Shown piece after piece: positions 19,711 through 34,860 of a stretch of DNA of 64,000 nucleotides; the stretch's first letter is position 1, and each line of letters opens with the position of its first letter. The translations under genes were made by a program, and so were the position numbers. The stretch lies in NCBI GenBank assembly GCA_029838195.1, contig JALGVJ010000018.1:1-64000 (forward strand), written 5' to 3'. The DNA comes from Promethearchaeota archaeon (GTDB lineage: Archaea; Asgardarchaeota; Lokiarchaeia; Sigyniarchaeales; SOKP01). Under the pieces are notes generated by a model. That model saw only the letters and a program-made list of their open reading frames with translations, had not been told where the DNA came from and did no database searches.

Positions 19711-20502
19711 TCAAGCATGCTTTACTTGCTTTATTTTATTTAAAATTATATTTCCAATTAACTCTTCGGCCGTGGTTTTCCCCCTCCAGTTAGTAAATTC
19801 CGGAAAACATCCCACATCAACGATATAATACTCGTTGGTGTTTTCTTCTTTAACCAGATCTAAATGTCCAAAAGATAAATTATAAGAGGTTTTCCATAGT
19901 TTTATGATCTTTCGAACTTCCATATCGAGGGGTACTTGTTTCATGGGACCATGCTCATCTGACATGGGAGGTTTCTCTAAGAGACATGTCTCATCTTGAA
20001 TGAAATAAGCTAAATAATGCGTTCCTTTAATGAATTTTTGAAAGTAATAAATTTTATCAGAATTTAGTTTAAGCATTTCCTTATTTTTTATTAATTGAAT
20101 TCCCTTACTTCCCGAACTCATTAAAGGTTTTAAAATTATTGGAAAATCATTTTTATTTAATTTTTCCTCCATGACTTTCATGGTACCCATGTAGAAAGGA
20201 GGTGTATTGAGATTTAAGTTTTTAGCTAAATAATAAGCTTCAATTCTATCTCGATGTTTATATGCAATAGTAGGATCTGGGAAAACGGGAACATTAGCTT
20301 CTTCTAAATAAAAAGCAGCTTGGAGGAACAAGAAATTTTTCGATTTTAATATGATAAAATTGTTATCTTTTAGAGTAGAATTGATATTGAGTTTTTTTTC
20401 ATCTATTAGTTCGATGAAAAAGTCATGATTTTCCAGAAATTCTTTCAATTTCCAGCTAAAAGAACTTTTTTTAATTTTTTTTGTAAAAATTCCAATCCGC
20501 AT
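19711..20502 (-). CDS. ATP-grasp protein, divergent ITPK1-like
   Basis: PIILKP..SSGSKGI, YFQKFI, GHLDLV...YYIVDVGCFPEF. Confidence 0.68.
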   Translation of the reverse strand: MRIGIFTKKIKKSSFSWKLKEFLENHDFFIELIDEKKLNINSTLKDNNFIILKSKNFLFLQAAFYLEEANVPVFPDPTIAYKHRDRIEAYYLAKNLNLNTPPFYMGTMKVMEEKLNKNDFPIILKPLMSSGSKGIQLIKNKEMLKLNSDKIYYFQKFIKGTHYLAYFIQDETCLLEKPPMSDEHGPMKQVPLDMEVRKIIKLWKTSYNLSFGHLDLVKEENTNEYYIVDVGCFPEFTNWRGKTTAEELIGNIILNKIKQVKHA

Positions 20503-20525
20503 GATTAATGATTAAAAGAGTGGTT

Positions 20526-21344
20526 TCATATTTTAGCTTGATTAATTAAAAAATCGCCCACTAATTTTGGGCCTTCCTTCATGTAATTAAAATTTGGCGT
20601 GCTGTTGATATCTGTTAAATAAAATTTTCCGTCGTCAGACTTTAAATAATCTATTGAAGTTATTTTGAGATCCAGCGTTTTCATGGCTTTCAAGCTCATT
20701 TCTTTTAAAAAAGGGATTTCTTCTATTTTGACTCTACTTTTCATTTTGTCAGGTTCTATCAAAACAGGAATTTGCTTATAGAAAAATAATTCTTCATTAA
20801 TTCCATAAACTTTATATTCCCAATCACTTTTTATGAATTCTTGATAATAATAATGATTAATTTGGAAGTTTTCTTCGTTTGAATTTATTAATACTCTTTT
20901 ATCGATGACTTGAATTTTTCCATTCCTTATCCTTATTTCCGGTTTAAAATTAATGTTTTTTTGATCAATTGCATTTTTTATTATATAATTTTCGAAGGGC
21001 GGTGTTAAATGTTTGGAAGAATATCCATAATTTGGCACGAGAATTCCATTTTTACGAAGATATAAAGAATTTAAAAACCGATTCATGGCTAAATAGATTC
21101 CTTTATAAGAATTAAAAACAGGAATGGACGTTTCTCGTTCGATATATCTAACAAGGGCCAATGCTAAATTTCCTTTCGTCTTTACAAAAAAGACATCTTC
21201 GTCCAACCTTAAGTCATCGAGAGATAATAAAAAATCTTGCTCTACATAAAGAGTTACATGAGCTTTATCTTTTAAATAAGCAAGTAATTTCGCTAATTTA
21301 TACTTCAGATGATAGGTATCCGTGATAATTCCAATTCTTGGCAT
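20526..21344 (-). CDS. ATP-grasp protein, ITPK1-like inositol phosphate kinase candidate
   Basis: YQEFI...EYKVYG, SIDYL...FYLTDINSTPNF. Confidence 0.72.
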   Translation of the reverse strand: MPRIGIITDTYHLKYKLAKLLAYLKDKAHVTLYVEQDFLLSLDDLRLDEDVFFVKTKGNLALALVRYIERETSIPVFNSYKGIYLAMNRFLNSLYLRKNGILVPNYGYSSKHLTPPFENYIIKNAIDQKNINFKPEIRIRNGKIQVIDKRVLINSNEENFQINHYYYQEFIKSDWEYKVYGINEELFFYKQIPVLIEPDKMKSRVKIEEIPFLKEMSLKAMKTLDLKITSIDYLKSDDGKFYLTDINSTPNFNYMKEGPKLVGDFLINQAKI

Positions 21345-21786
21345 TTTAAACCATTCTCACGAGTTAAACTCATTTAATATTAAATGAGTATAATCCTTGC
21401 TCTCTTTTTAATATCTTTTACTCCACTAATTCTGTATGGTTAAAAAAATAAAATGGGCTAAAAGATTTTCTTGTAATAAAAAAAAACTATTCCTTTAATT
21501 TCTATTTTTTATCATGAATAAACACGCAGAAATTATTAAAGTTTGAAATAAAGTTTCAAAATTTGGAGAGTGAAAAATATCTTTGACATTTAATCAAAAA
21601 TTTGAAAACACGGATAATAATTTGAGTTCTTTTTGGACTTCTTTTTTTTAAGTGAAATAGTGATTTTTAGCGAAAACTTTGAAGATTTCCTCATTCAAAA
21701 ATCTTTTTCTCCATAAAAAGTATTAGATATATAAACCATTAATTTATATATTTTCATATATTCTGATAAGATTAAATCAATATAGT

Positions 21787-22704
21787 GTGAGAATGGCTAA
21801 AAATATTCTCAAGCGAATTTACATTGGCACGATCAACGAGCGTGATCCCGAGATCTTCAAGGAGATTAAAGATTTCTGCTTAACACATTATAATATAAAG
21901 TTTGTAAACCTTCTCGAGAAAAAAAAATTTTCCAAAAAATATTTCAAAAAAAAAATAAAAAAATATCCTATCTCATTTCTCATTGTAAAATTATATTCTA
22001 AAAATTCTAATGAAAAAATATATAACGCTCTTAACTCCTTAGCACCCAACATTCCTCTATTAAACAGCATTGAAGCAGTAAGGACATGCGAAAGTCGTAA
22101 AAAAACGTTCATGTTGATGCAAACAAGATGTAAGGAGATTAAAATCCCCGAATTTTATTCCACAAGAGATGAGGTTCTGGCTGCTCTCTCCAGTAATAAA
22201 AAAATCATTATTAAACTAGATTCTCATAATCCTGAACATGTAAAGAAGGAAGACAGAATTTTAGGGATCGTGTCCAATCAAAAAGAAATTTCTACTATTT
22301 TAAGCCAATACGATTTTGATGAGATCTTTTTTCAAGAATACATGGGAAAATTCGATATTATTTATAAAGTATACGTGATCAATAATTGGATCGTGTCCAT
22401 TACCTCCACCGACCGATTACAAGGCGATAAACATTTAAGCCCATTGGATTTAGTCCATCTTAGAGTGTCTATTGATGAAATGCTGAAAAATCACATTTTA
22501 AAAATAGGCAAGCAATTTAGGATGTCAATCTTTGGAATTGATTACGTTATAAAAAATAACGTGCCTTACATTATCGATATCAATGATTTTCCTAGTTTTA
22601 GAAGGATTCCTGAAGCTGTTAGCCTCATTTCTGATTACATGTATAATCTTTTAACTCTAAGAGAATACGCAGAACTCTTAAAAACGCACATAGCTACATA
22701 TTGA
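21787..22704 (+). CDS. ATP-grasp protein, ITPK1-like inositol phosphate kinase candidate
   Basis: FFQEY...YKVYVI and IFGIDYVI...IIDINDFPSF (ITPK1-type DIN.FP); adjacent to ino1. Confidence 0.8.
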   Translation: MRMAKNILKRIYIGTINERDPEIFKEIKDFCLTHYNIKFVNLLEKKKFSKKYFKKKIKKYPISFLIVKLYSKNSNEKIYNALNSLAPNIPLLNSIEAVRTCESRKKTFMLMQTRCKEIKIPEFYSTRDEVLAALSSNKKIIIKLDSHNPEHVKKEDRILGIVSNQKEISTILSQYDFDEIFFQEYMGKFDIIYKVYVINNWIVSITSTDRLQGDKHLSPLDLVHLRVSIDEMLKNHILKIGKQFRMSIFGIDYVIKNNVPYIIDINDFPSFRRIPEAVSLISDYMYNLLTLREYAELLKTHIATY

Positions 22705-22774
22705 CCAAGAATCATATTTTAGTCTTGACTATTCAATACTCATCAATAAAAACATAAAGGTTAGAAAAATCATG

Positions 22775-23863
22775 TTATCTTTCTCTCTTTTTTTGAAGGA
22801 ATTCTATTAAATTCCTTTTAGCCGCCTCATCTTCTAACTGTTCGGGAGGATGTTTACAAAAAAAAGAACAAGCCGAATGTAAAATTCCGCCAATTTTTCT
22901 ATCTTTCGCAATTTTAGAAACGCGAATGCAATCTGCGATAATGCCTGCGGAATTGTTGCCATCTTCCACGAACATGGTGATATCAATCCTAACGGGCGCT
23001 CCTCCAAATATTTTACCTTCTAATCTCATGTAAGCTTCTTTTTGATTTTTTAAAAAAGGAATATAATCCACGGCAGATATTTGGCATTCTATTCTTTCCT
23101 TATTCGGTAACCTAGAAATGACGGATTCTGTTTTTGATTGCCGCTTTCCTTCTTCATATCGTAGCTTTCCATTTGGCATGGGCGTTAGTAAATTACAAAA
23201 ATCACTAGAACCTCCCCAATCTAATTGAATCGTGCGTTCTAAAACAGCACCTCTCAGCGGAAATAAATTGGCTAAGGATCTATGGATGATGGTAGCCCCT
23301 ATCTGAGATTTTACATCATCTCCTATTAGGGAAAGGTTTCGTTCTTCCGCTTTTTTAATGAGTTCTGGATCTTTTGCCACTGGGGTGGGCATGCCATTCA
23401 CAACACTAGCACTTGCTTCAAGAGCACATGTTACGTAATATTTCACCGCCCTATGTGAACCCGTTGGAAGTAAAATGACGACAACATCCACGTTTCTTTT
23501 CTTTAATTCATTAGTAATATCAGCTGGTTTTTGTTCCTCTGAAAAAGGGATAATGTTTTTAATGTTACTCGCTAATCCATCCAATATGGGTCCCTTAATG
23601 ACAGGCGCATCCAAAAAGCGGGGTCGAAATAATTCTATATTGCAATTGGGCTCTGTAAAAATCGCTTCACTTAAGTCTTTTCCGACTTTTTTAGCATTCA
23701 CGTCAATTCCTAATACAAAATTTATGTCCGTTATAGAGTAGTCTTTAATTTCGGGTAACACGCCAATGATTCGTTCTGGATGCTCTTTATAGTTTTCTAC
23801 GCCTTGAACTAGAGCGGAAGCAACATCTCCAACGCCGACAATACAAGTATTTATATTGGCCAT
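22775..23863 (-). CDS. ino1: myo-inositol-1(3)-phosphate synthase
   Basis: GVGDVASALVQG, LPTGS, GDDVKSQIGAT, SKT, NSAG and FCKHPP motifs. Confidence 0.93.
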   Translation of the reverse strand: MANINTCIVGVGDVASALVQGVENYKEHPERIIGVLPEIKDYSITDINFVLGIDVNAKKVGKDLSEAIFTEPNCNIELFRPRFLDAPVIKGPILDGLASNIKNIIPFSEEQKPADITNELKKRNVDVVVILLPTGSHRAVKYYVTCALEASASVVNGMPTPVAKDPELIKKAEERNLSLIGDDVKSQIGATIIHRSLANLFPLRGAVLERTIQLDWGGSSDFCNLLTPMPNGKLRYEEGKRQSKTESVISRLPNKERIECQISAVDYIPFLKNQKEAYMRLEGKIFGGAPVRIDITMFVEDGNNSAGIIADCIRVSKIAKDRKIGGILHSACSFFCKHPPEQLEDEAAKRNLIEFLQKKRER

Positions 23864-24238
23864 GATATTGAAGATAATAAAATGTTAATATTTAAATCAT
23901 TTTTGCTAATAGATTTGTTTATCTTGTTCATTTTTACTTAAACACCAGAAAAGATCATATTTAATTATCATATTTCATGAATGCATAAAATTTTCATGAT
24001 TTAAACGAGTATTTTTAAATAATAACCTCCCATAATTTAATAATGTTTTATTAATGGTAGATAATTTAAAATGGATTGATTTTAGATACAAGCATGGTTT
24101 GATTTAAAATGAATTTCTATTTTTCATTCTTAATTGTTCTACTTGCTTAATAATATTTAAAACTCTTTTAAAAAAATTTTAGTATTAAAAAGAATATTTC
24201 CTATCATTCAAAGGAGTTATAATACTTATATATTTATC

Positions 24239-27052
24239 ATGAGATTTGAAGATAAAAAAATCTATATTGCATTAAGTCCTCATATCAATTATTATCACTC
24301 ATACCGCGGTGATTCACGGGGAGTCACGGGATTTGGAAAAGATTTAGCTTTAATGAGAGGAATACTTGATAAATTAGATGAGATTGAAGACATGGGTTTT
24401 TCTTTTGGATCCATGAAAATTTCTTGGGATTACGCAGATCTTTTTTGGTCCATTCAATTACAAAAGGAGTATCAACAAGATGTTTTGGATCGCGTGAGAG
24501 AGAGATGCAAGCGAAAAAAAGATGAAGTACTCATTGGTTCTTGGGGAAATGTTGCTCAGCCCATTTTAGATACGGAAGCCTTAATTCAAGACCAAAAGTG
24601 GTTTCGAGAAAATTCCATGGGTATTGGTGTGGATCAATTATTTAAGGGGAGGGTGGCGCCTTACACAAGAACTCAAGAGACCATGTATACACAAGGCATG
24701 ATTGAAATATATAATAAATTGGGAATTGAAGGGATCTGCATCTATTATTCCGTATATCAATTTGACGTTGCCAGACCTTTTTTAAATCCTCGCTTAGATT
24801 GGAATCAACAATTTGGACCTGTTAAATTGAAATCCACCGTTTCTGATGCAACTTGTTTAATGATTCCCATGTATGGATTTGGAGATATATTAGACAATTG
24901 TTCTATCAAACGCTGGTTAAAAATAATTAGAAAAGCTCAGAAGAGAGGAGATATTAAGGGTCACGCTCTCCTTTTTTTAAATTTTGACATGGATTATGAC
25001 CTGTGGCTTTCCGTTCCCATGCCCTCCTTTCTCAAATGGATGCCAAATACTCGCGGCTTACTAGAATTTGCTGAAGTCGTGGACCAACTTGAGTACGTGG
25101 AATTTGCAAACCTTTTGGAAATCATTCCTAAATTAGAGGTTAGAGGCGAAACGATGCTACAACAAGATGTTGCAGATGGAAATTGGAATGGATTTTACAA
25201 TTGGGCACAAAAACATGATAACACGCGCTTTTGGACCGTTGGTCAATGGGCAAGATGGGTAAAATGCATAACTGATACATTAATTTCAACAAATCATGTA
25301 AAAGATAGGGTCGAACAAATAAATTCATTTTTGAGAGAAGGCACGGATCAATCAAATACTTACCTTAAAAACATGATTCTTTTTAGTTCTACGACGAATT
25401 TTGGATTATCCCTCCCATTTCAGCATCCTCATAGACAAAAAACAGCCATGAGTTATGGGTTAAATGCTTTAAGGGCTGCATTAAAAGCGATGAGGATCGC
25501 TAAAGAAAATTTAACTTCTCAAATTAAAAAGAATAATTTATTTACAAAACCGGGCATTTGGATTTTTCCCATTACCAATCGGGGTATTACACCAGAAGAG
25601 AATAAAAAGGTGGAATCTCCCATTTTAATACGAACTGAAATTCCTCTTGAATTCAAGGAGAATTTATTAGATAATAAAGATTTACTTTCCCATATCAGTT
25701 TCATGGAAGAGGGCGTGCGTCATGCATTTTATGAAGATCCGTTAAAATCAACTCTAATTCTCGAAGCCATCATTCCACCTGATAAATTTTCGGATGGAAA
25801 TTCTTATTATCTTCCTTTAACTTTCCGACAACAGGAGCCTCATGATTCTATTAAAAATGAGCTTCAAGCAACCAGAAGAATTTTAAAAAATAAGTATTTA
25901 ACCGTGGAATTTGATAAAAATGGAAAAATAAATTCTTTTAAACATAAAGGAAAAGAATTCGCTTGTCCAAAATTTTTAGATTCTGCAGTGGTTTTTGGCA
26001 CTCCAAAAAAAGCAAAACGATGTGAATCCATTAAAGATGAATTTTTGGTTCTAAGAACGGGGGAAGATAATTTTTCCGCTTCCATTAAGATTAAAAGCAC
26101 CTTCGAAATCTTGCCTGATGCTCACGTTCACGTGGAGAAAATCTGTACGATGTATGCCGATTTACCATGCTTATTTATCCAAGTTGAAATGAATCTCTGT
26201 GATATAAAAGGAGAGAAAAAAATAGAAGATGGAACCTCTTTTGTTGAGGAAGAATATAATAAGGGATGGTTAGAAATCATGCCTTGTGAAATCCGCCCCA
26301 ACATTCTTGGAAAAAACAAATTTTTGCGAATATGGAAACATAATTATTTTGGTCGGGTTTCATGGTTTGATTTAAACATGAAACAAATAGATCCTAAAAA
26401 TGCTAATATTGATTGCTTGGTATCAAATATCTCAGATGGCTGGATGGGGCTAACTAACGGGGAGAAAGGCTTGCTCGTGGGATATAATGGAGTAAAAGCG
26501 GCGAATTTTGCATTTACGCCCTTAAAATTGCGAGATAAGGGTTTTGGAGATTGTGCTCAAAAAGCCCAACAAGTTAGAATTAATCCTTTCGGGACGTATT
26601 ATGGAAAATCGCTACATTATTGGAGTAATGGAACGGGACACGCACAAAAACTTGTTCCCAAGCTCTTTACTACCTTAGATTCTTCCGCACCAACATTTAG
26701 CGGTAAAACTGTTTCTTTCGAGTTAGTACTCATTCCCTACATGGGAGACTTCCCTCCCTATGAATTTCAATCCTTCTTGAACCATTATTCTCTCCCTCCC
26801 TTGCTCTTGTACGTGGGTAAATATCAAGATGAAATTCAAGATAATTATTCTTACTTGGAATCCAAAGCAAGTTCATTAATTAAAGAATTTGATATTGAGG
26901 AACTCATGGAAATGGATTACATTGATTGGGTGAGAAAAATTAATGCTGATTTTGACACTGCACGAGAATTAAAATTTCCTAAGCAAGAAATGAAATTAGA
27001 TGTAAGTTCAGCGTTATTACTCCTCTTAGATGGAATTAGAGGAAAATCATGA
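24239..27052 (+). CDS. large putative glycoside hydrolase (GH38/GH57-like N-terminal barrel plus beta-supersandwich)
   Basis: N-terminal HINYYHSY, RTQE, NFDMD; later LKNKYLTVEFDKNGKINS typical of a GH38 C-terminal domain start. Confidence 0.55.
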   Translation: MRFEDKKIYIALSPHINYYHSYRGDSRGVTGFGKDLALMRGILDKLDEIEDMGFSFGSMKISWDYADLFWSIQLQKEYQQDVLDRVRERCKRKKDEVLIGSWGNVAQPILDTEALIQDQKWFRENSMGIGVDQLFKGRVAPYTRTQETMYTQGMIEIYNKLGIEGICIYYSVYQFDVARPFLNPRLDWNQQFGPVKLKSTVSDATCLMIPMYGFGDILDNCSIKRWLKIIRKAQKRGDIKGHALLFLNFDMDYDLWLSVPMPSFLKWMPNTRGLLEFAEVVDQLEYVEFANLLEIIPKLEVRGETMLQQDVADGNWNGFYNWAQKHDNTRFWTVGQWARWVKCITDTLISTNHVKDRVEQINSFLREGTDQSNTYLKNMILFSSTTNFGLSLPFQHPHRQKTAMSYGLNALRAALKAMRIAKENLTSQIKKNNLFTKPGIWIFPITNRGITPEENKKVESPILIRTEIPLEFKENLLDNKDLLSHISFMEEGVRHAFYEDPLKSTLILEAIIPPDKFSDGNSYYLPLTFRQQEPHDSIKNELQATRRILKNKYLTVEFDKNGKINSFKHKGKEFACPKFLDSAVVFGTPKKAKRCESIKDEFLVLRTGEDNFSASIKIKSTFEILPDAHVHVEKICTMYADLPCLFIQVEMNLCDIKGEKKIEDGTSFVEEEYNKGWLEIMPCEIRPNILGKNKFLRIWKHNYFGRVSWFDLNMKQIDPKNANIDCLVSNISDGWMGLTNGEKGLLVGYNGVKAANFAFTPLKLRDKGFGDCAQKAQQVRINPFGTYYGKSLHYWSNGTGHAQKLVPKLFTTLDSSAPTFSGKTVSFELVLIPYMGDFPPYEFQSFLNHYSLPPLLLYVGKYQDEIQDNYSYLESKASSLIKEFDIEELMEMDYIDWVRKINADFDTARELKFPKQEMKLDVSSALLLLLDGIRGKS

Positions 27053-27120
27053 AGTTTTCATTTCAATTTCAATTCAAAAATAGTTGCCTAATCTTAAATA
27101 AAAAAGAAAGGAGTAGGAAA

Positions 27121-28137
27121 ATGGAAGGAAAAATGAATGCTCTATTATTTCCCGAACCTTGGAAAGTAGAGCTGATTGAAGTGGACATCCCGAAATGCGG
27201 ACCATATGATGTATTGGCAGAAATCCATTCAGTTGGAATTTGTGGAAGTGATGTAGGAATTTTCGAAGGAGAACATTGGATTGTTGCTAGGGAACCAGGA
27301 GGACATGGGCATGAAACAGGAGCTCGCGCTGTAGAAGTGGGCAAAAATATTGAAGGGATTAACGAAGGCGATCATTTAGCTCGTATGGGACATGGATATG
27401 CTCAATATTCCACTCACGTGAATGTAATTGGTCATGGAAAAGATGAGAAAATGGGGGCATTACCTATCGTGCGAAATGACTTATCATTAGAAGAGATCTC
27501 CTTTGCTGATGCTGTTGGTTGTGCTATCAATTGTTTTGAACGGGCTGAATTCGATAGAATTGAAGGAGAAAAAAAAGCTATTGTTTTAGGCTTAGGTCCT
27601 ATAGGGTTAATTTTAACCCAAATTCTTCTCATGAATGGAATAGAAGTCGCAGCTTCAGAACTTTATCCCTTAAAAAGGAAATTAGCAAGGAAATGGGGTG
27701 CCAAGGTATATGATCCCAAAAAATACACGAGACCAACTCATGGTAATTTTACCGTGGTGGATCAGATTAAAAAAGAATTTGGTGAAGCTCACGCCGTTTT
27801 TGAAATGGTTGGAAGTAATGATACCCTACTACAAGCTATTGATTTAGTGCAACCAGGGTTTCGAGTAATGGTTTTTGGTGCTCAGAAAATGCAATATATT
27901 CCCTATGTAAATTGTAGAAAGAAAGGAGTTGAATTAGTATATCCGGAAGCCATGGTAAATTCTAAAGCGGACAAGGATTATTGGAACGATGCCCTAAACT
28001 TGATCGCCAGTAAAAAATTGGATTTAAAGAGCTTGATCACGAAGCGCATTACTTTGGAAGAAGCCGTTGATGCGTTCAAGTATTATGACCGAGAAAAATG
28101 GATTAAAATCATCATAGAGCCCTTTAGAACCCGATGA
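27121..28137 (+). CDS. zinc-dependent MDR alcohol/polyol dehydrogenase
   Basis: GICGSD, GHE and GLGPIG motifs; no structural-Zn Cys cluster; start chosen after AGGAG. Confidence 0.87.
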   Translation: MEGKMNALLFPEPWKVELIEVDIPKCGPYDVLAEIHSVGICGSDVGIFEGEHWIVAREPGGHGHETGARAVEVGKNIEGINEGDHLARMGHGYAQYSTHVNVIGHGKDEKMGALPIVRNDLSLEEISFADAVGCAINCFERAEFDRIEGEKKAIVLGLGPIGLILTQILLMNGIEVAASELYPLKRKLARKWGAKVYDPKKYTRPTHGNFTVVDQIKKEFGEAHAVFEMVGSNDTLLQAIDLVQPGFRVMVFGAQKMQYIPYVNCRKKGVELVYPEAMVNSKADKDYWNDALNLIASKKLDLKSLITKRITLEEAVDAFKYYDREKWIKIIIEPFRTR

Positions 28138-28288
28138 TTTTTCGCTTTTAATGATTATTTTACAAATCTAAGAAGAAAAGAGAAAAGAATAGGGATAATA
28201 TTCTTGCATGTTGATATATTTTTTAAAAAAGTTATTAAAATGCTGTAATAAAAAAATTAAAAAAATTTGGAATATATAGATTGTTATT

Positions 28289-29584
28289 TTATTCGATTTC
28301 ATAAGTTTCTTTCACAAATCTGAAGAAAATCGTAGATAGTATAAAGAATGCCGTTGAAGTTAAAAAGATCCACTGTAATCCAAATGATTGCGCAATTACC
28401 CCCGCAATTATGGCACCTATAATCTGAGGAACCGTGAATACTATATTCAATATTCCAAAAAACTTACCTCTTTGATCTTCTGGCAAGAGATCTTGGGACC
28501 ATGCGTTTAAAGGGGCTGGCATGCCAAGGAGAGCTACGAGAATAAAGGGCAGGGAGATAAAAAAGAGCAAGATATTAACCCCTGCATTTGTTGTTTTCAC
28601 GAATGATGCTGAAGCAACTCCGATGCTTATGATAATAATGATTAAGGGAGTATATTTTTTTCTCCCAAATCGATCGCTTATTTTTCCAAGTGTAACCGTT
28701 ATGAGAATGAGAAGCGGAAAACCAATAAGGATAGCTAATAAGAGCTGAAGAGTAGAAATGCCTAAAGAAAAGATATAAATGAAAAGAAAAGGCATGATAA
28801 CACCCACACCAGATTGGTAAATCATGTAAGCAAGAGTCATCTTAAAGAATTCTTTATGTTCTTTCATGGCTTGATAATCAAACATTCGGACAAAATCTTC
28901 CGTAAATTTTCTTTTTGGTGGCAACTCAGAAGGAGGTCGTTCTTTTATAAAAATAAAACCTAAAATGGCAGCAGCAATTAACATGATTCCGCCGAAAGAC
29001 AGGACAAATTGGTGCCCTTCTTGCGTCAAGATTTTTCCTTCTCCCGAAGGAGCAGGCACGGTGAACAATAAATCACTTATTAAAAAGAGAGCAACCCCAA
29101 TAAGCACGCCTAGATTTCCAATAGCCGTGATTATCCCGTTAGCTCGACCTCGATATTCGAGATCAATGGTATCAGGAATAACTGCCCTCTCGGCAGCAAA
29201 AAAAGCATTTGAGGAAATTCCTAATATCACTACATCAATGAAAAAGGCCCAAAAATAATTAGGGCTATATCCATAGAGGATTGCTGCTGCTCCCGTAATG
29301 ACACCACCGACTAATAAATATGGTCGTCTTCTCCCATGTTTTGATCTTGTATTATCAGAGAAAATGCCCCAAACAAGTAAGAAAATCAACCCCATCGTTG
29401 CTGAGAATGAAACCATCACGGACACATAAAGTTCTGAAAGTTGAAGCACGTGAGCGAGATAGGTATTAAAGAAATTTTGTTCTACAAAGCCATAGACTTG
29501 ATCCGCAGCAAAGACAATACCAATAATTATGGCTTCAAATAAAATGAATTTAGGAAGCTTGCCTGTTCGTAAATTTTCATTCAT
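28289..29584 (-). CDS. MFS (GPH-like) sugar transporter
   Basis: SDNTRSKHGRRRPYLL and SDRFGRKK motifs; about 12 TM. Confidence 0.9.
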   Translation of the reverse strand: MNENLRTGKLPKFILFEAIIIGIVFAADQVYGFVEQNFFNTYLAHVLQLSELYVSVMVSFSATMGLIFLLVWGIFSDNTRSKHGRRRPYLLVGGVITGAAAILYGYSPNYFWAFFIDVVILGISSNAFFAAERAVIPDTIDLEYRGRANGIITAIGNLGVLIGVALFLISDLLFTVPAPSGEGKILTQEGHQFVLSFGGIMLIAAAILGFIFIKERPPSELPPKRKFTEDFVRMFDYQAMKEHKEFFKMTLAYMIYQSGVGVIMPFLFIYIFSLGISTLQLLLAILIGFPLLILITVTLGKISDRFGRKKYTPLIIIIISIGVASASFVKTTNAGVNILLFFISLPFILVALLGMPAPLNAWSQDLLPEDQRGKFFGILNIVFTVPQIIGAIIAGVIAQSFGLQWIFLTSTAFFILSTIFFRFVKETYEIE

Positions 29585-29753
29585 TTTTCGTCAAATTATA
29601 AAATTTTATAAAATTAAATATGTTAAATGAAATTAAAGTTTCTTTATTAATAAAATGCTATGATATTTCATTAATAAGGAGTGGTATTAATGGGCAAAGA
29701 ATTTGGTCAATTTCCTCCGGCAATTGGGGCCACGAGAAAGATTTTACCATAAT

Positions 29754-30776
29754 TCAAGAGATTTTGTGCGAGGGGAGGGGGATTTGTATTATGAAATTGC
29801 TACCTTTTTCATGATTACCCTCAATTCTATTTTTTACGAAAATTTTTCCATGATAACTATCGATTATTTTTTTAACTAAGGATAACCCCAATCCCATTCC
29901 TCCCACGGATTTATCGTGAGCTGAGGTTCTTTTAAAAATTTCATTTTTTCTAGCATCTGAAATTCCTCGCGCATTATCAATGAATTGTAGTTGAAGAAAA
30001 TCGTTATTTTTTTCTTTTATCTTATCAACGTGGATGGTAATTTCAATTTCAGGATTAAGGTTATGTTTTATCGCATTAATGAGTAGATTTTCAAAGACAT
30101 CAAGGAGTAATTCATTTGCTAGGATAAAATACCTCGGTTCATTAGGGATAACTTTAATTTTTAAATTTTTATCAGAGAAATTGTTCTTAACATTAGAAAC
30201 GGCATCATTTAAGATTTGTAAGACTTCTAATTCATGAAGCGTGAATTTTCCATTCTCGATATTGGAAAGTGTTTGAACATTATGGATGAGAACGGTGGCT
30301 CTATCTATTTGATCTTTAAAAATATTTATTAACTCATCTAATTCATTTTTCTTATTTGGTTCTTTTTGATAAAGCTTAAAAAGTTCAAACGAACTCAACA
30401 TGCTCTGAAGTATATTATTCATATCGTGGGCGAATAAATCTTTATAGAAATTAAGCCTTTCATATGCATTTCTGTAATTGGCTTCAGATTCCTTGATTTT
30501 TTCCTCCATTTTTGGAATGAAAATCCAAAAAAATCCCATTACAGCACAGAAGATTTTAAACGTCTCCGAAACATCGTCAGCCGCTTTTATATCAATTAAC
30601 TCAAATTTTTCAAGGATATTTCCAATAGTAAATAAAAATCCGCCCATAAAAAGCAAGACTATGGTTAAAGAGCTGATGTCTTTTTTTTTAGAAAATTCCA
30701 TTATACTAATAATGAGACACCCTACGAAAAAGAACATGGCAATAATATTGAAAACCCCATCTATTACTTGTACCGT
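29754..30776 (-). CDS. membrane-bound sensor histidine kinase (start uncertain: ACG 30776 or ATG 30737)
   Basis: H-box FAHDMNNILQ, N-box ENLLINAIKH, DNARGI, GMGLGLSLVK; N-terminal TMs. Confidence 0.88.
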   Translation of the reverse strand, partial: TVQVIDGVFNIIAMFFFVGCLIISIMEFSKKKDISSLTIVLLFMGGFLFTIGNILEKFELIDIKAADDVSETFKIFCAVMGFFWIFIPKMEEKIKESEANYRNAYERLNFYKDLFAHDMNNILQSMLSSFELFKLYQKEPNKKNELDELINIFKDQIDRATVLIHNVQTLSNIENGKFTLHELEVLQILNDAVSNVKNNFSDKNLKIKVIPNEPRYFILANELLLDVFENLLINAIKHNLNPEIEITIHVDKIKEKNNDFLQLQFIDNARGISDARKNEIFKRTSAHDKSVGGMGLGLSLVKKIIDSYHGKIFVKNRIEGNHEKGSNFIIQIPLPSHKIS

Positions 30777-30779
30777 GGT

Positions 30780-31067
30780 TCACACCTCTCTTTCAATTTC
30801 TTCTTCTCGAGCATGGAAATGTCGATAGATCATTCCAATGAAAAATGAAAGTGCTGATAAGAGAATGGTTAGATGTTCGAAAAAATCAAATAAATCCGGA
30901 GCAAAAAAAGCCTCTAAATTTGTAAAAATAAAGGACATCACAATAAAAATAGCGCCGGGTAATAAAGGGAATATGTCCCTTCTTTTCTTTAAGATATAAC
31001 GAAAAAAAATAATCGGAATTAAAATAAAAATTAAAGCAAAAAATTCTAACATTTCAAACTCAGGCAA
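30780..31067 (-). CDS. small 3-TM membrane protein in frame with the downstream kinase
   Basis: Hydrophobic 95-aa ORF; its TGA is followed by an open in-frame stretch into the kinase. Confidence 0.7.
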   Translation of the reverse strand: MPEFEMLEFFALIFILIPIIFFRYILKKRRDIFPLLPGAIFIVMSFIFTNLEAFFAPDLFDFFEHLTILLSALSFFIGMIYRHFHAREEEIEREV

Positions 31068-31214
31068 GCAGCATTTTCACCTAATTTAAAAATAAATTAC
31101 TCCTTCTAGATTTTTGTTTTAATTATGATAATAAAGAATGGAGGATAATAAAAAAATCTTTTTTAATTCTTTCTTTTCATGGGTTTTCATTGGTAATCTC
31201 TTGATTGATAAGTG

Positions 31215-32516
31215 TTATTCATTTTTTAGGATCAAGGTTTCTTTCACGCGTAAAAATAACGGGATGGACCCAATGAGAAAAATTGGAACGAATAAAAAGA
31301 TATATTGGACTCCATAGGAATCCGCAATCAATCCTCCAATGAAAGCCCCGGGAATTTGAGAAATAGTATCCATGAAATTAAGAATGCCTGTGAATTTTCC
31401 ACGTTCATTTTCGGGCAATAAATCTTGCTGCCAAGTTAAAAGAGGGACCATGAGTCCCATTAATGCCACTAAGACCAAAATAAAAGAGACCACGTAAAAA
31501 ATGAAATTCATGGGAGTATTAGGCGAAATAAAGGGAAGTGTAAAAAATCCTGCGCTGGAAATGAGAATTAAAGGAGTAAGAAATCGTTTTCGACCATATT
31601 TATCCACGATTTTCCCGAGAAGATACATTACAAGTAAGGAAATGGGAATGATGATGCTAAAAATTAAAATCAATTGAATCGTTGGCAAGCCGAGATCGAA
31701 TATATAATTAAATACAAAAGGGAGAATGATTCGAATTCCAATATTAAAGACAAACATGGCAATTATAATGCGAAAAAAATGCTTATGTGCTTTCAATTCA
31801 GCATATTTCATGGTTTTTCTTAAATCTTCCAAGAAAGTTTTTTTAGGAGGCAATTCTGAGACGGGTTTTTCTTTGATGAAGAGGAATCCAATGATCGAAA
31901 CTAGTACCATCGTGAATCCACCAATGGCAAAGGAAAGGATATAACCTTCTTGCGTTATTAATGTACCTGACGCTGTTTGAATGGAATAATATTCATTTAC
32001 ATAAAGCGTTAGTCCCACTGGTATCATGGAGCCTAACAAGTTTGCAATTTGCGTAATTCCATTGGCTCTGCCTCGGTATTCCGTATCGAAGATGTCTGGA
32101 ATTAACACTTTTTGAGCAGCATAAAAGGAATTTGATGCGAGCCCAATTATAATTACATCTATGAAAAAACACCAAAAAAAATTAGGAGAAAAAGAATAAA
32201 GATACATGGCAAGGCCTCCAATTATTCCGCCGATAAGAAGATAAGGCCTTCTTCTTCCCCACCTACTTCTCGTGTTATCGCTTAGAGTTCCAAAAACAAT
32301 AAAAAACACGAATCCAGCAATCCCACTGAACGATACCATTATAGAGATGTAAATGTATTCTTTCTTTAGCACGTGCTCGATATATGTATTAAAGAGAGAG
32401 AATTCATAAAATCCAAAAATTGCCGCCGCCCCATAAATTAGAGCAATAATGATCATTTCGAAAAGCAGAAATTTTTCCTTTTCATGAGCTTCCTTATCAT
32501 TTAATTTTTTTTCCAT
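31215..32516 (-). CDS. MFS (GPH-like) sugar transporter, paralog of 28289-29584
   Basis: SDNTRSRWGRRRPYLL; shared EYRGRANGI and QDLLPE..RGKF motifs. Confidence 0.9.
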   Translation of the reverse strand: MEKKLNDKEAHEKEKFLLFEMIIIALIYGAAAIFGFYEFSLFNTYIEHVLKKEYIYISIMVSFSGIAGFVFFIVFGTLSDNTRSRWGRRRPYLLIGGIIGGLAMYLYSFSPNFFWCFFIDVIIIGLASNSFYAAQKVLIPDIFDTEYRGRANGITQIANLLGSMIPVGLTLYVNEYYSIQTASGTLITQEGYILSFAIGGFTMVLVSIIGFLFIKEKPVSELPPKKTFLEDLRKTMKYAELKAHKHFFRIIIAMFVFNIGIRIILPFVFNYIFDLGLPTIQLILIFSIIIPISLLVMYLLGKIVDKYGRKRFLTPLILISSAGFFTLPFISPNTPMNFIFYVVSFILVLVALMGLMVPLLTWQQDLLPENERGKFTGILNFMDTISQIPGAFIGGLIADSYGVQYIFLFVPIFLIGSIPLFLRVKETLILKNE

Positions 32517-32610
32517 GATCTAAATTTCATCCGAAATTATTTAAGTATTTTGAAGTTTTATTTTTGATTAGGAAATAATGTTCACGTTATTTAATTGATG
32601 GGGGACACAA

Positions 32611-33501
32611 ATGAAAAAAAAGATTTTATTTTCCGTGAAAAGAGATCATGAAATCCTTGATCGTGTTATAGAGGGATTGAATGCTATTTCTAATATCGAG
32701 CTTATTATTCATGATCCGACCAAGGAATATTTTAACATTACTCGCATGAGGACCATTTTAAGCAACTATGATTTCATTATCGTGAAGGTTGTGAATCAGA
32801 ATTCTTTAAACATGTTATATTTTGCCAAGCTCCATGGCATTCGCACGCTTCATGATTTAAATTCTGTTTTAATTTGTAAGAGCAAATTTATTTTAGACAT
32901 GTATTTAAGGAAGATTTTAGAGACTCATGCCCCTCAATTTGAAAACATTCATTTACCTACTGCTTGGAATCATAATCCCATAAATAAAACCGAATTTAGG
33001 GAGTGGATTATTGAGCATGTGCCCGTTGTTATTAAAAGTAACTATCAGTGTGACCCGTATAATAGGTTCAATTTTTTAGTGAGGAAAAAAGAAGAGATTG
33101 ATTACTTTTATGAACGCTATTCTTCTTTTATTACTAATGATGTATATCTCCAAAAATTTATTGAATGTGATGGGTATGACAGAAAAATTTATGTTATTGG
33201 AGAGGAAATCTTTGGAATAAAAAGAGAAAACCCAATTTATTTATTTCTGAGAGAACATCCCGAGAATATTGATGTAAATGAATTAAAAAGGGAACCCTAT
33301 TCCGTTCCAAGTAAAATAAAAGAATTTGCTAAGATTTTGGGAAAAGAGTTAAATTTAAAATTATTTGGTTTTGATTTGGTTCAAAAAGGCAAGGGAGAAT
33401 ATTATCTTTTAGATTTAAATGAATTTCCCGGATTTAAAGGGATCCAAAACGTTTCTACTAAGCTAATATCGTTTTTTAAAAACTTATTTTTCTCAGAATA
33501 A
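32611..33501 (+). CDS. ATP-grasp protein, ITPK1-like inositol phosphate kinase candidate
   Basis: YLQKFI..DGYDRKIYVIG and LFGFDLV...YLLDLNEFPGF. Confidence 0.78.
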   Translation: MKKKILFSVKRDHEILDRVIEGLNAISNIELIIHDPTKEYFNITRMRTILSNYDFIIVKVVNQNSLNMLYFAKLHGIRTLHDLNSVLICKSKFILDMYLRKILETHAPQFENIHLPTAWNHNPINKTEFREWIIEHVPVVIKSNYQCDPYNRFNFLVRKKEEIDYFYERYSSFITNDVYLQKFIECDGYDRKIYVIGEEIFGIKRENPIYLFLREHPENIDVNELKREPYSVPSKIKEFAKILGKELNLKLFGFDLVQKGKGEYYLLDLNEFPGFKGIQNVSTKLISFFKNLFFSE

Positions 33502-33514
33502 TTTCAGATTAATT

Positions 33515-34323
33515 TTATTGAAAAGCAGAAAAGATGTAAGAGGGGATTATCATGATAAAAGAAATCAATCCATATAAAATGCAGAAGTAATTAAAGGAGA
33601 GCTTTTTTACTAATTTTATTAAAATGCTCATCATGAGATATGCGCCTAGAAAGCTAAAACTCAAGGAAAGGAGGAGATTGAGAAGAGTTGAAATTTTAAA
33701 AACAGAGTTGTTTTTAAATAAGACTTCGAGAAGTAAGGATATTATAAAAAATGGGATATACATGATAAAACTTAATTTTAAAGCAGTTTCTTTATCATTA
33801 TTTTCTAATAAATGAATGGAAACCGTCAAGGCAGGACGAGAAACTCCCGGAAGTATCGCCAGTCCTTGCATTAATCCGGATAAAAAGGCAGATGTTCTAA
33901 GTTCCTTATTAGATAAATTTTCGAAATCATTTGTTCCAAAAATTCTATTAATGCGAATTAATAATATTCCTGCTCCAAATAAAATGCCTCTATATAAACG
34001 TGTTGAAACAAGTAATAGAAAGGAAAAATCGTGAGGAGTGTGCCCATGCTGCTAAAAATTAACCAATTTCTTCTATTAATATCCACCCGATCACTTTCAT
34101 TCCCTAATGAATTTAGTATGTTTAAAATCCTCGCAAATTCTGACCGAAATTTAATAATTATAGCCAGAAAAGAACCAAGTTGGAACCAGAATACACCTTG
34201 AATCTCATTATTAGGGTTTAAATTTAAATTTTTTGAGATCATGGCCATGACTTGCCCAAATGGAGAGATGGGGAGCATTTCCAGAATTCCAAATAAAAAA
34301 GCAAGGATGATGATTTCAATCAT
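33515..34323 (-). pseudogene. frameshifted BacA/UppP-like polyprenyl-diphosphate phosphatase
   Basis: N fragment GILEMLPISPFGQ and C fragment QGLAILPGVSR lie in different frames; shift near 33960-34030. Confidence 0.78.
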
Positions 34324-34386: not shown

Positions 34387-34860
34387 TTAAAAATATCGTT
34401 GCAATCCCTTCATGACGCAACGTTTAATTTCATCGCGCGCGATTCTAAATCCCTCTAAGCCCTTCATGGAGGGATCTTCAATATTTCCCGTTTCCCCCGC
34501 AAATTCTCGTAAAGTAAGAATGACCTTATCATTCGATTTCAAGCATTTTAACACTTCTTTTTTATGCGTTTCGGTTAAAGTGATGATTAAATCTGCTTGT
34601 TCAAGGTAATTAGGATGTTTTTTTAGATCTATAGATAAGGCATCTTCTCTCAAATGAATGTTGTCTTCTTTCATGGCTAAACGTGCATCCAGAGAAATGA
34701 GCATGCCATCTCTCGCATTAGAGGCGATTCCACCGGAACAAATTTTAACATCCATGCCTTTACTTGAAAAGAAATCTTTTAAATACCCTTCTACCATGCG
34801 GCTTCGTGCTGTATTAACGCTACAAGCAATGACAATATTTTTATAGGGAAATTTATTCAT
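34387..34860 (-). CDS. low-molecular-weight protein phosphatase family
   Basis: P-loop CSVNTARS (CX5R), ADLIITL, IEDP. Confidence 0.88.
   Translation of the reverse strand: MNKFPYKNIVIACSVNTARSRMVEGYLKDFFSSKGMDVKICSGGIASNARDGMLISLDARLAMKEDNIHLREDALSIDLKKHPNYLEQADLIITLTETHKKEVLKCLKSNDKVILTLREFAGETGNIEDPSMKGLEGFRIARDEIKRCVMKGLQRYF

What the first reader, a model, noticed from the sequence alone, without database searches (positions are those of the whole stretch)
19711..33501. Four ITPK1-like ATP-grasp kinases clustered with inositol-3-phosphate synthase
Seen: three ATP-grasp genes lie next to ino1 and a fourth lies about 9 kb downstream. All four have Asp at the terminal metal-binding site (DINDFP, DLNEFP, DINSTP, DVGCFP), whereas RimK/LysX ligases have E-x-N. 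Established: D-x-N-x-F-P is the ITPK1 signature, and ITPK1-like genes have been reported in Asgard archaea (Desfougeres et al. 2019). Inference: a lipid-independent route from glucose-6-P via Ins3P to inositol polyphosphates, with labour divided among paralogs.
Basis: partly seen in the sequence, partly recalled or inferred. Interest (0 to 1): 0.8.

Follow-up and report, generated by a model that had tools for sequence, protein, structure and literature searches.

The report
Lokiarchaeal inositol synthase–ITPK kinase cluster
This Loki-type Asgard archaeon carries its own copy of a gene cluster published in 2019 that pairs a dedicated inositol-phosphate synthase with ATP-grasp relatives of the eukaryotic kinase ITPK1, so the locus is real and conserved but not new.

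Summary
Four mutually related ATP-grasp genes sit with an inositol-3-phosphate synthase gene. The motifs are exactly as quoted: DVGCFP, DINSTP, DINDFP and DLNEFP.

The interpretation repeats Desfougeres et al. 2019 (PMC6900528). That paper reported four ITPK1 homologues (LcIKA-D) flanking IPS genes in Lokiarchaeum. It proposed the same glucose-6-P to Ins3P to InsPn route, and found that LcIKC partly restores IP6 in yeast plc1-delta.

- **ITPK1-like by HMM and PDB searches:** only G4 (32611-33501) and G3 (21787-22704).
- **Ambiguous:** G2 (20526-21344) keeps D-x-N and the strand lysine, but its best solved relatives are LysX/ArgX.
- **Altered site:** the whole G1 family (19711-20502) has D-x-G and lacks that lysine.
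- **Not RimK-type:** none of the four has the RimK/LysX ligase signatures (E-x-N, W-x-x-N-x-x-x-G loop).

The order G1, G2, G3, ino1, [variable slot], G4 recurs in 43 loci. The 9-kb "gap" is that slot, filled here with passenger genes.

PF05770 hits occur in 36 of 40 sampled genomes of the window's own GTDB family, and in 1 of 160 other Asgard genomes. A three-kinase version exists in Thermoplasmatota.

The scan has flagged this cluster before in at least 32 other genomes. Novelty is low and interest is modest.

The parts
19711..20502 (-). G1: divergent ATP-grasp, 263 aa. It has D-V-G in place of D-x-N and no strand lysine, but keeps the ATP-binding lysine (ILKP) and a GSxG loop.
   Evidence: AF2 pLDDT is 94.5. 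Best fold match is ArgX/LysX, with ITPK1 lower. D-x-G holds across the family. Median identity to 42 orthologues is 42%.
20526..21344 (-). G2: ATP-grasp, 272 aa, with D-I-N-S-T-P and the Y-K-V-Y lysine. It lies 23 bp upstream of G1 on the same strand.
   Evidence: PF05770 scores 16.8 bits, below the cut-off. The profile's best PDB hit is ArgX at 1.2e-4. The RimK loop motif is absent. Median identity to orthologues is 54%.
21787..22704 (+). G3: ITPK1-like ATP-grasp, 305 aa from the GTG (an ATG two codons in gives 303 aa), with D-I-N-D-F-P. It is transcribed divergently from G2 and convergently with ino1. It is probably the type of the published LcIKC.
   Evidence: Residue 156 is the invariant Arg in 15 of 20 family members, and in none of the sampled G4 or G2 proteins. 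The paper cites Arg156 in LcIKC.
22775..23863 (-). ino1: short actinobacterial-type inositol-3-phosphate synthase, 362 aa, dedicated to this cluster.
   Evidence: A second, canonical archaeal MIPS lies on contig C23, in an operon with a nucleotidyltransferase and a CDP-alcohol phosphatidyltransferase. Median identity to orthologues is 76%.
24239..32516 (.). Variable slot between ino1 and G4. Here it holds a 937-aa protein without Pfam hits (24239-27052 +), a Zn-dependent dehydrogenase (27049-28137 +), an MFS transporter (28289-29584 -), a histidine kinase (29754-30737 -) and a second MFS transporter (31215-32516 -).
   Evidence: In 43 loci the slot content ranges from nothing to MFS only, to 937-aa + ADH + MFS, and to unrelated genes. 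The language-model look-alikes of the 937-aa protein are GH57/GH38-like, which is a lead only.
32611..33501 (+). G4: the clearest ITPK1-like ATP-grasp, 296 aa, with D-L-N-E-F-P. K192 and R205 align with the IP-contact Lys and Arg of ZmITPK1.

Best explanation
This is an orthologous copy of the Lokiarchaeal IPS/ITPK1-homologue cluster. A dedicated second inositol-3-phosphate synthase turns glucose-6-phosphate into Ins3P. ATP-grasp kinases encoded beside it phosphorylate Ins3P to higher soluble inositol phosphates without any lipid or phospholipase C step. G4 and G3 are the ITPK1-type kinases. G2 is probably a further kinase of the same broad clade. G1 has lost the Asn metal ligand and the strand lysine but keeps ATP-binding features, so it is a partner of altered or no catalytic activity. 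The genes between ino1 and G4 are variable passengers, not core parts. Shown here: homology, motifs, synteny and distribution. Inferred: substrate, product and order of steps.
For: The published precedent is direct. Lokiarchaeum has four ITPK1 homologues flanking IPS genes, and LcIKC partly restores IP6 in yeast plc1-delta. LcIKC's Arg156 matches the invariant Arg of the G3 family.

G4 passes PF05770. The G4 and G3 family profiles hit ITPK1 structures best, and the K199/R212-equivalent residues align.

All four proteins lack the RimK E-x-N and the W-x-x-N-x-x-x-G loop. G2, G3 and G4 have also replaced the ligase GSxG loop.

RimK-type ATP-grasps from the same genomes split off with SH-aLRT 99. 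They score about 130 bits on PF08443, against 23 bits or less for the cluster genes.

The order G1, G2, G3, ino1, slot, G4 recurs in 43 loci. MIPS is also linked to G1-, G2- and G3-like genes in Thermoplasmatota MAGs with different neighbours.

The genome has a separate MIPS in a nucleotidyltransferase/CDP-alcohol transferase operon. It has no IPK or IPK1 family kinase.
Against: - No activity is known for G1, G2 or G4 types. The only assay in the literature is a weak heterologous rescue by one paralogue.
- G2 and G1 fall below the PF05770 cut-off. Their folds match LysX/ArgX/RimK slightly better than ITPK1: for G2, Z is 23.2 against 20.1; for G1, Foldseek E is 4e-18 against 2e-13.
- Unrelated flanking genes (radical SAM, FKBP, BacA, LMW-PTP, isochorismatase) are as syntenic as the cluster in 32-49 loci. 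Gene order within this family is therefore weak evidence of function.
- The D-x-N-x-F-P motif also occurs in bacterial ATP-grasps in a non-inositol context.
- No eukaryotic ITPK1 sequence could be put into my tree.
Confidence: 0.6

Rival explanations
1. Mixed pathway. Only G3 and G4 are inositol phosphate kinases. The conserved G2-G1 pair carries out different chemistry on an inositol derivative, for example ligation, pyrophosphorylation or head-group phosphorylation, or it acts as a regulatory pair.
For: The G2 profile's best solved relative is ArgX. RimK Pfam rings weakly in 19 of 20 G2 members, against 9 of 20 for PF05770. The G1 and G2 folds rank LysX/ArgX first. G1 keeps the ligase-like GSxG loop. 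G1 and G2 are always adjacent and co-oriented, 23 bp apart here.
Against: Both lack E-x-N and the RimK/LysX W-x-x-N-x-x-x-G loop that holds the acyl-phosphate and nucleophile. G2 keeps D-x-N and the ITPK-type strand lysine. Neither nests with the RimK-type proteins. No carboxylate-supplying or carrier-protein gene is conserved in the cluster.
Confidence: 0.25
2. The cluster's ino1 paralogue makes a cyclitol phosphate other than myo-inositol-3-phosphate, and the ATP-grasps act on that product.
For: The genome already has a canonical archaeal MIPS elsewhere. The second-best solved relative of the cluster enzyme is a five-membered-cyclitol-phosphate synthase, 6K96, at E 6e-41.
Against: It aligns end to end with genuine M. 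tuberculosis Ino1 at E 2e-79, 126 bits above 6K96. TIGR03450 is its best NCBIfam hit at 297 bits.
Confidence: 0.07
3. The adjacency is inherited synteny within one archaeal family and carries no functional coupling.
For: Unrelated flanking genes are conserved in position in 32-49 of the same loci.
Against: MIPS is linked to G1-, G2- and G3-like genes in Thermoplasmatota, in another arrangement and with other neighbours. All PF05770-positive genes of the genome lie here.
Confidence: 0.05

Closest known systems
Lokiarchaeum LcIKA-LcIKD / IPS loci (Desfougeres et al. 2019, PNAS, PMC6900528)
   Same: ITPK1-homologous ATP-grasp genes flank an inositol-3-phosphate synthase gene in a Loki-type Asgard genome, and the same soluble-route hypothesis is proposed. 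G3 here probably corresponds to the assayed LcIKC, on the Arg156 match.
   Different: This is another genome. I could not map LcIKA-D onto G1-G4, because no accession numbers are in the text held and no supplement is held. It is therefore unknown whether the G1 and G2 families were among the four. Here a 9-kb passenger insert separates ino1 from G4.
Eukaryotic ITPK1 (Pfam PF05770; PDB 2QB5, 2ODT, 7TN5-8, 8OXE, 1Z2N)
   Same: ATP-grasp fold, a D-x-N-x-F-P-G/S-F/Y metal-binding strand, a K-V/I-Y lysine and a following Arg. G4 and G3 hit these structures best.
   Different: HMMER aligns only the C-terminal ~115 residues (residues 180-294). The archaeal proteins are shorter, at 263-305 aa, and lack the long insertion after the R212 strand. 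G2 and G1 are not recognisably closer to ITPK1 than to LysX/RimK.
RimK / LysX / ArgX / MptN alpha-L-glutamate-type ATP-grasp ligases (PF08443, TIGR00768)
   Same: The compact three-domain ATP-grasp architecture. These are the best fold matches for G1 and G2. NCBI often names the orthologues 'RimK family ligase'.
   Different: E-x-N is replaced by D-x-N or D-x-G, and the W-x-x-N-x-x-x-G loop is missing. PF08443 scores are 13-23 bits, against about 130 for the genome's true RimK-type genes. The cluster proteins lie on the other side of a split with SH-aLRT 99.

Membership tests
ITPK1 / Ins134_P3_kin (PF05770) | Score at or above the Pfam gathering cut-off (23 bits) | tested here: inconclusive
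   G4 scores 46.6 and passes. G3 scores 21.5 in hmmscan, but 23.8 when summed in the six-frame search, and most orthologues carry PF05770. G1 scores 19.9 and G2 16.8, both failing.
ITPK1 / Ins134_P3_kin (PF05770) | Nearest solved relatives by sequence profile are ITPK1/ITPK4 | tested here: inconclusive
   Met for G4 (E 7e-10) and G3 (E 3e-6). Not met for G2 (ArgX 1.2e-4, ITPK 0.13) or for G1 (no clear hit).
ITPK1 / Ins134_P3_kin (PF05770) | Metal-binding D-x-N on the last strand (HsITPK1 D295/N297) | tested here: inconclusive
   Met in G2, G3 and G4 and in all 30 orthologues sampled. Not met in G1, where D-x-G holds across the family.
ITPK1 / Ins134_P3_kin (PF05770) | IP-contact Lys on the K-V/I-Y strand (HsITPK1 K199) and the following Arg (R212) | tested here: inconclusive
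   The Lys aligns in G4 (K192), G3 (K194) and G2 (K178), and is absent in G1. The Arg aligns in G4 (R205). G3 and G2 are uncertain. The N-terminal contacts K18 and K59 could not be anchored.
ITPK1 / Ins134_P3_kin (PF05770) | ATP-dependent phosphorylation of inositol phosphates | not testable with these tools
   Only the literature bears on this: LcIKC, probably a G3 type, gives partial IP6 rescue in yeast plc1-delta.
RimK/LysX/MptN ligases (PF08443) | E-x-N metal site and the W-x-x-N-x-x-x-G(G/A) loop | tested here: not met
   Both are absent from all four families, and both are present in 15 aligned RimK-type proteins from the same genomes.
RimK/LysX/MptN ligases (PF08443) | Strong PF08443 or TIGR00768 score | tested here: not met
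   G4 scores 23.1 bits, just over the 21-bit cut-off but half its PF05770 score. G2 scores 13.7, and G3 and G1 score nothing. TIGR00768 gives 40 bits or less against a cut-off of 143. The genome's true RimK-type genes score 130-132 bits.
Inositol-3-phosphate synthase (MIPS) | Full-length homology to a characterised MIPS | tested here: met
   Residues 4-356 align to residues 16-365 of 1GR0 at E 2e-79. PF01658 scores 73 bits. TIGR03450 scores 297 bits, below its equivalog cut-off of 638.

The most novel reading that the evidence does not exclude
The G2-G1 pair is an undescribed part of the pathway: a new inositol-phosphate kinase family plus a degenerate ATP-binding partner. It is older than the G3/G4 ITPK1-like pair in the sense that it travels with MIPS outside Asgard, in Thermoplasmatota. 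The four enzymes together would make a defined InsPn in a stepwise way. Because the set is confined to one Loki family in the sample, the Asgard-eukaryote ITPK1 link could reflect transfer rather than vertical descent.
Probability: 0.2. Interest if true: 0.6.

Novelty: already known. Interest (0 to 1): 0.3.

Why it matters
Soluble inositol polyphosphates were long held to be a eukaryotic hallmark. An archaeal Ins3P-to-InsPn route bears on what the archaeal ancestor of eukaryotes could already do. That point was made in 2019.

This window adds detail only:
- the cluster has its own second MIPS;
- it has a conserved five-gene core with a variable slot;
- two of the four ATP-grasps are not demonstrably ITPK1-like;
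- its range in the Asgard sample is narrow, essentially one GTDB family.

The activities of the four paralogues and the product are still unmeasured, and ordinary biochemistry could settle both.

Tried and rejected
- **Gene contexts.** I took synteny from the search for related loci instead.
- **Fold comparison.** It did not separate kinase from ligase for G1 and G2. LysX/ArgX, RimK, PPIP5K2 and ITPK1 all score Z 19-23 for G2.
- **Mapping LcIKA-D to G1-G4.** This failed because no accession numbers are in the main text and no supplement is held. Only the Arg156 clue was usable.
- **Tree.** It shows only that the four families do not nest in the RimK-type group; their mutual order is unresolved.
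- **"Extended inositol island" reading.** I rejected this for the genes at 24239-32516 and for the LMW phosphatase at 34387-34860. The slot content varies between genomes. The downstream genes are no more conserved than unrelated upstream genes.
- **937-aa protein.** It has no Pfam or PDB sequence match.
- **Other kinase families.** IPK (PF03770) and IPK1 (PF06090) were not found in the 96.6%-complete genome.
Full report
**What is there**

The window is contig C54 of a 4.5-Mb, 94-contig, 96.6%-complete genome. Its proteins match Promethearchaeota (Loki-type Asgard) MAGs.

The region holds four ATP-grasp ORFs and an ino1 gene:

| Gene | Coordinates | Strand | Motif |
|---|---|---|---|
| G1 | 19711-20502 | - | DVGCFP |
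| G2 | 20526-21344 | - | DINSTP |
| G3 | 21787-22704 | + | DINDFP |
| ino1 | 22775-23863 | - | n/a |
| G4 | 32611-33501 | + | DLNEFP |

The four are distant paralogues. They share 22-30% identity, and hhalign of G2 and G1 against G4 gives 97-99% probability over the full length. Every PF05770 hit in the genome lies in this window.

**Already published**

Desfougeres et al. 2019 (PMC6900528) reported four ITPK1 homologues, LcIKA-D, in Lokiarchaeum, and noted that two pairs of them flank two IPS genes. From this they proposed that ITPK1 was originally an inositol or InsP1 kinase feeding a lipid-independent route. They showed that LcIKC partly restores IP6 in yeast plc1-delta. A 2026 preprint places Asgard sequences as sister to the eukaryotic ITPK1 clade.

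The paper cites Arg156 in LcIKC. Residue 156 is the invariant Arg of the motif D-R-I-[IL]-G in 15 of 20 G3-family proteins. It is not Arg in any sampled G4 or G2 protein. The assayed protein was therefore probably a G3 type. I could not map the other three.

**Are all four ITPK1-like?**

| Gene | PF05770 (cut-off 23 bits) | Best solved relative (family profile) | Predicted fold |
|---|---|---|---|
| G4 | 46.6 bits, passes | ZmITPK1 and HsITPK1, E 7e-10; K192 and R205 align with the IP-contact Lys and Arg | not modelled |
| G3 | 21.5 bits; 23.8 when summed | ITPK1, E 3e-6 | not modelled |
| G2 | 16.8 bits | ArgX, E 1.2e-4; ITPK at 0.13 | pLDDT 85.5; Z 23.2 LysX/ArgX, 21.5 PPIP5K2, 20.1 ZmITPK1 |
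| G1 | 19.9 bits | no clear hit | pLDDT 94.5; ArgX/LysX first, ITPK1 lower |

Most G3 orthologues carry PF05770. RimK Pfam rings weakly in 19 of 20 G2 members, against 9 of 20 for PF05770. The fold comparison does not discriminate between kinase and ligase for G1 or G2.

Residues are more informative. In a merged alignment with 15 RimK-type proteins from the same genomes:
- None of G1-G4 has the RimK/LysX W-x-x-N-x-x-x-G loop or E-x-N.
- G2, G3 and G4 have D-x-N and the Y/R-K-[VI]-Y lysine, and have lost the ligase GSxG loop.
- G1 keeps GSxG but has D-x-G and no lysine, and this holds across its family.

The genome's real RimK-type genes (contigs C92 and C38) score about 130 bits on PF08443, against 23 bits or less for the cluster genes. 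They also split off in a tree with SH-aLRT 99. Positive ITPK1 membership, however, is shown only for G4 and G3.

**Context**

Among 76 loci fetched with the G3 profile, 43 carry all five genes in the order and orientation G1-, G2-, G3+, ino1-, G4+. Between ino1 and G4 lies a variable slot. It is sometimes empty, often holds one MFS transporter, sometimes holds the 937-aa protein with a Zn-dehydrogenase and an MFS transporter, and sometimes holds unrelated genes. The window and its nearest relative L001 have the fullest version. This explains why the fourth gene lies 9 kb away.

Median identity to the window's proteins is 76% for ino1, 54% for G2, 52% for G3, 49% for G4 and 42% for G1. G1 is therefore under constraint, if somewhat looser.

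There is a caveat. Unrelated flanking genes are equally syntenic in 32-49 loci, so gene order within this family proves little on its own. Independent support comes from Thermoplasmatota MAGs, which carry ino1, G1, G2 and G3 with other neighbours and no G4.

**Distribution**

In an even sample of 201 genomes of the phylum, PF05770 rings in 36 of 40 genomes of the window's own GTDB family, in 1 of 3 of a sister family, and in 0 of 157 genomes from 25 other families. The G4 profile gives the same picture. "Found in Asgard archaea" thus means essentially one family in this sample.

**Rest of the genome**

A second, canonical archaeal MIPS lies on contig C23, in an operon with a nucleotidyltransferase and a CDP-alcohol phosphatidyltransferase. 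That is the usual route to CDP-inositol products. The cluster's actinobacterial-type ino1 (E 2e-79 to 1GR0) therefore looks like a dedicated Ins3P supply. Two inositol monophosphatase-family genes exist elsewhere. No IPK or IPK1 family kinase was found.

**Mechanism, with status**

- *Shown:* homology, motifs, synteny and distribution.
- *From the literature:* weak IP6 rescue by one paralogue.
- *Inferred:* ino1 makes Ins3P. G3 and G4, and probably G2, add phosphates in turn. G1 is an altered or non-catalytic partner of G2, since the two genes are always adjacent and are 23 bp apart here. The product and the order of steps are unknown.

**Verdict**

The locus is real and conserved, and it matters biologically, but it is an orthologue of a published cluster. 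The scan's own notes show it has been flagged in at least 32 other genomes, with the same conclusion. I reached these points before reading those notes. Novelty: already known. Interest: 0.3.

Noticed in passing
window 33515-33871 and 33958-34323 (-): Two adjacent ORFs each match half of BacA/UppP (undecaprenyl-diphosphatase). Their stop-to-stop frames overlap, as a frameshift or a sequencing error would give. Homologues sit at this position in about 40 related loci.
   Followed up: no
G000 contig C23, locus L077:8143-11504: A second, canonical archaeal inositol-3-phosphate synthase (388 aa) lies in an operon with a CDP-alcohol phosphatidyltransferase (450 aa) and a nucleotidyltransferase (264 aa). 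This is a likely CDP-inositol / di-inositol-phosphate or inositol-lipid route, separate from the kinase cluster.
   Followed up: partly
L070:8608-10606 (Ktedonobacteraceae); also L071-L076 (Streptomyces, Kitasatospora, Yinghuangia): Bacterial ATP-grasps carry the same D-[IV]-N-D-F-P-S-F strand (tandem pairs in the Ktedonobacteraceae loci L070, L073 and L075). In L070 they pass the RimK Pfam cut-off and lie beside Mur ligase, a GT4 transferase, an APH-type phosphotransferase and an ABC-FHA exporter. No MIPS lies nearby and their function is unknown.
   Followed up: partly
window 24239-27052 (+): A 937-aa protein has no Pfam or PDB sequence match. It recurs in the ino1-G4 slot of about 10 loci. 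Its language-model look-alikes are GH57/GH38-type glycoside hydrolases, which is a lead only.
   Followed up: partly
L039:12231-14461 and L046:2293-4547: Two further, more divergent MIPS-like ORFs lie directly beside the cluster's ino1 in two Promethearchaeota MAGs.
   Followed up: no
L030 (DATKTW010000070.1): A contig filed under 'Candidatus Nanopelagicaceae bacterium' carries the complete Asgard-type cluster G1, G2, G3, ino1, MFS, G4. It is probably a mis-binned archaeal contig.
   Followed up: no
G190:C338:15318-16205: The G4 orthologue of one related genome has an in-frame TAA stop. It may be a pseudogene or an assembly error.
   Followed up: no
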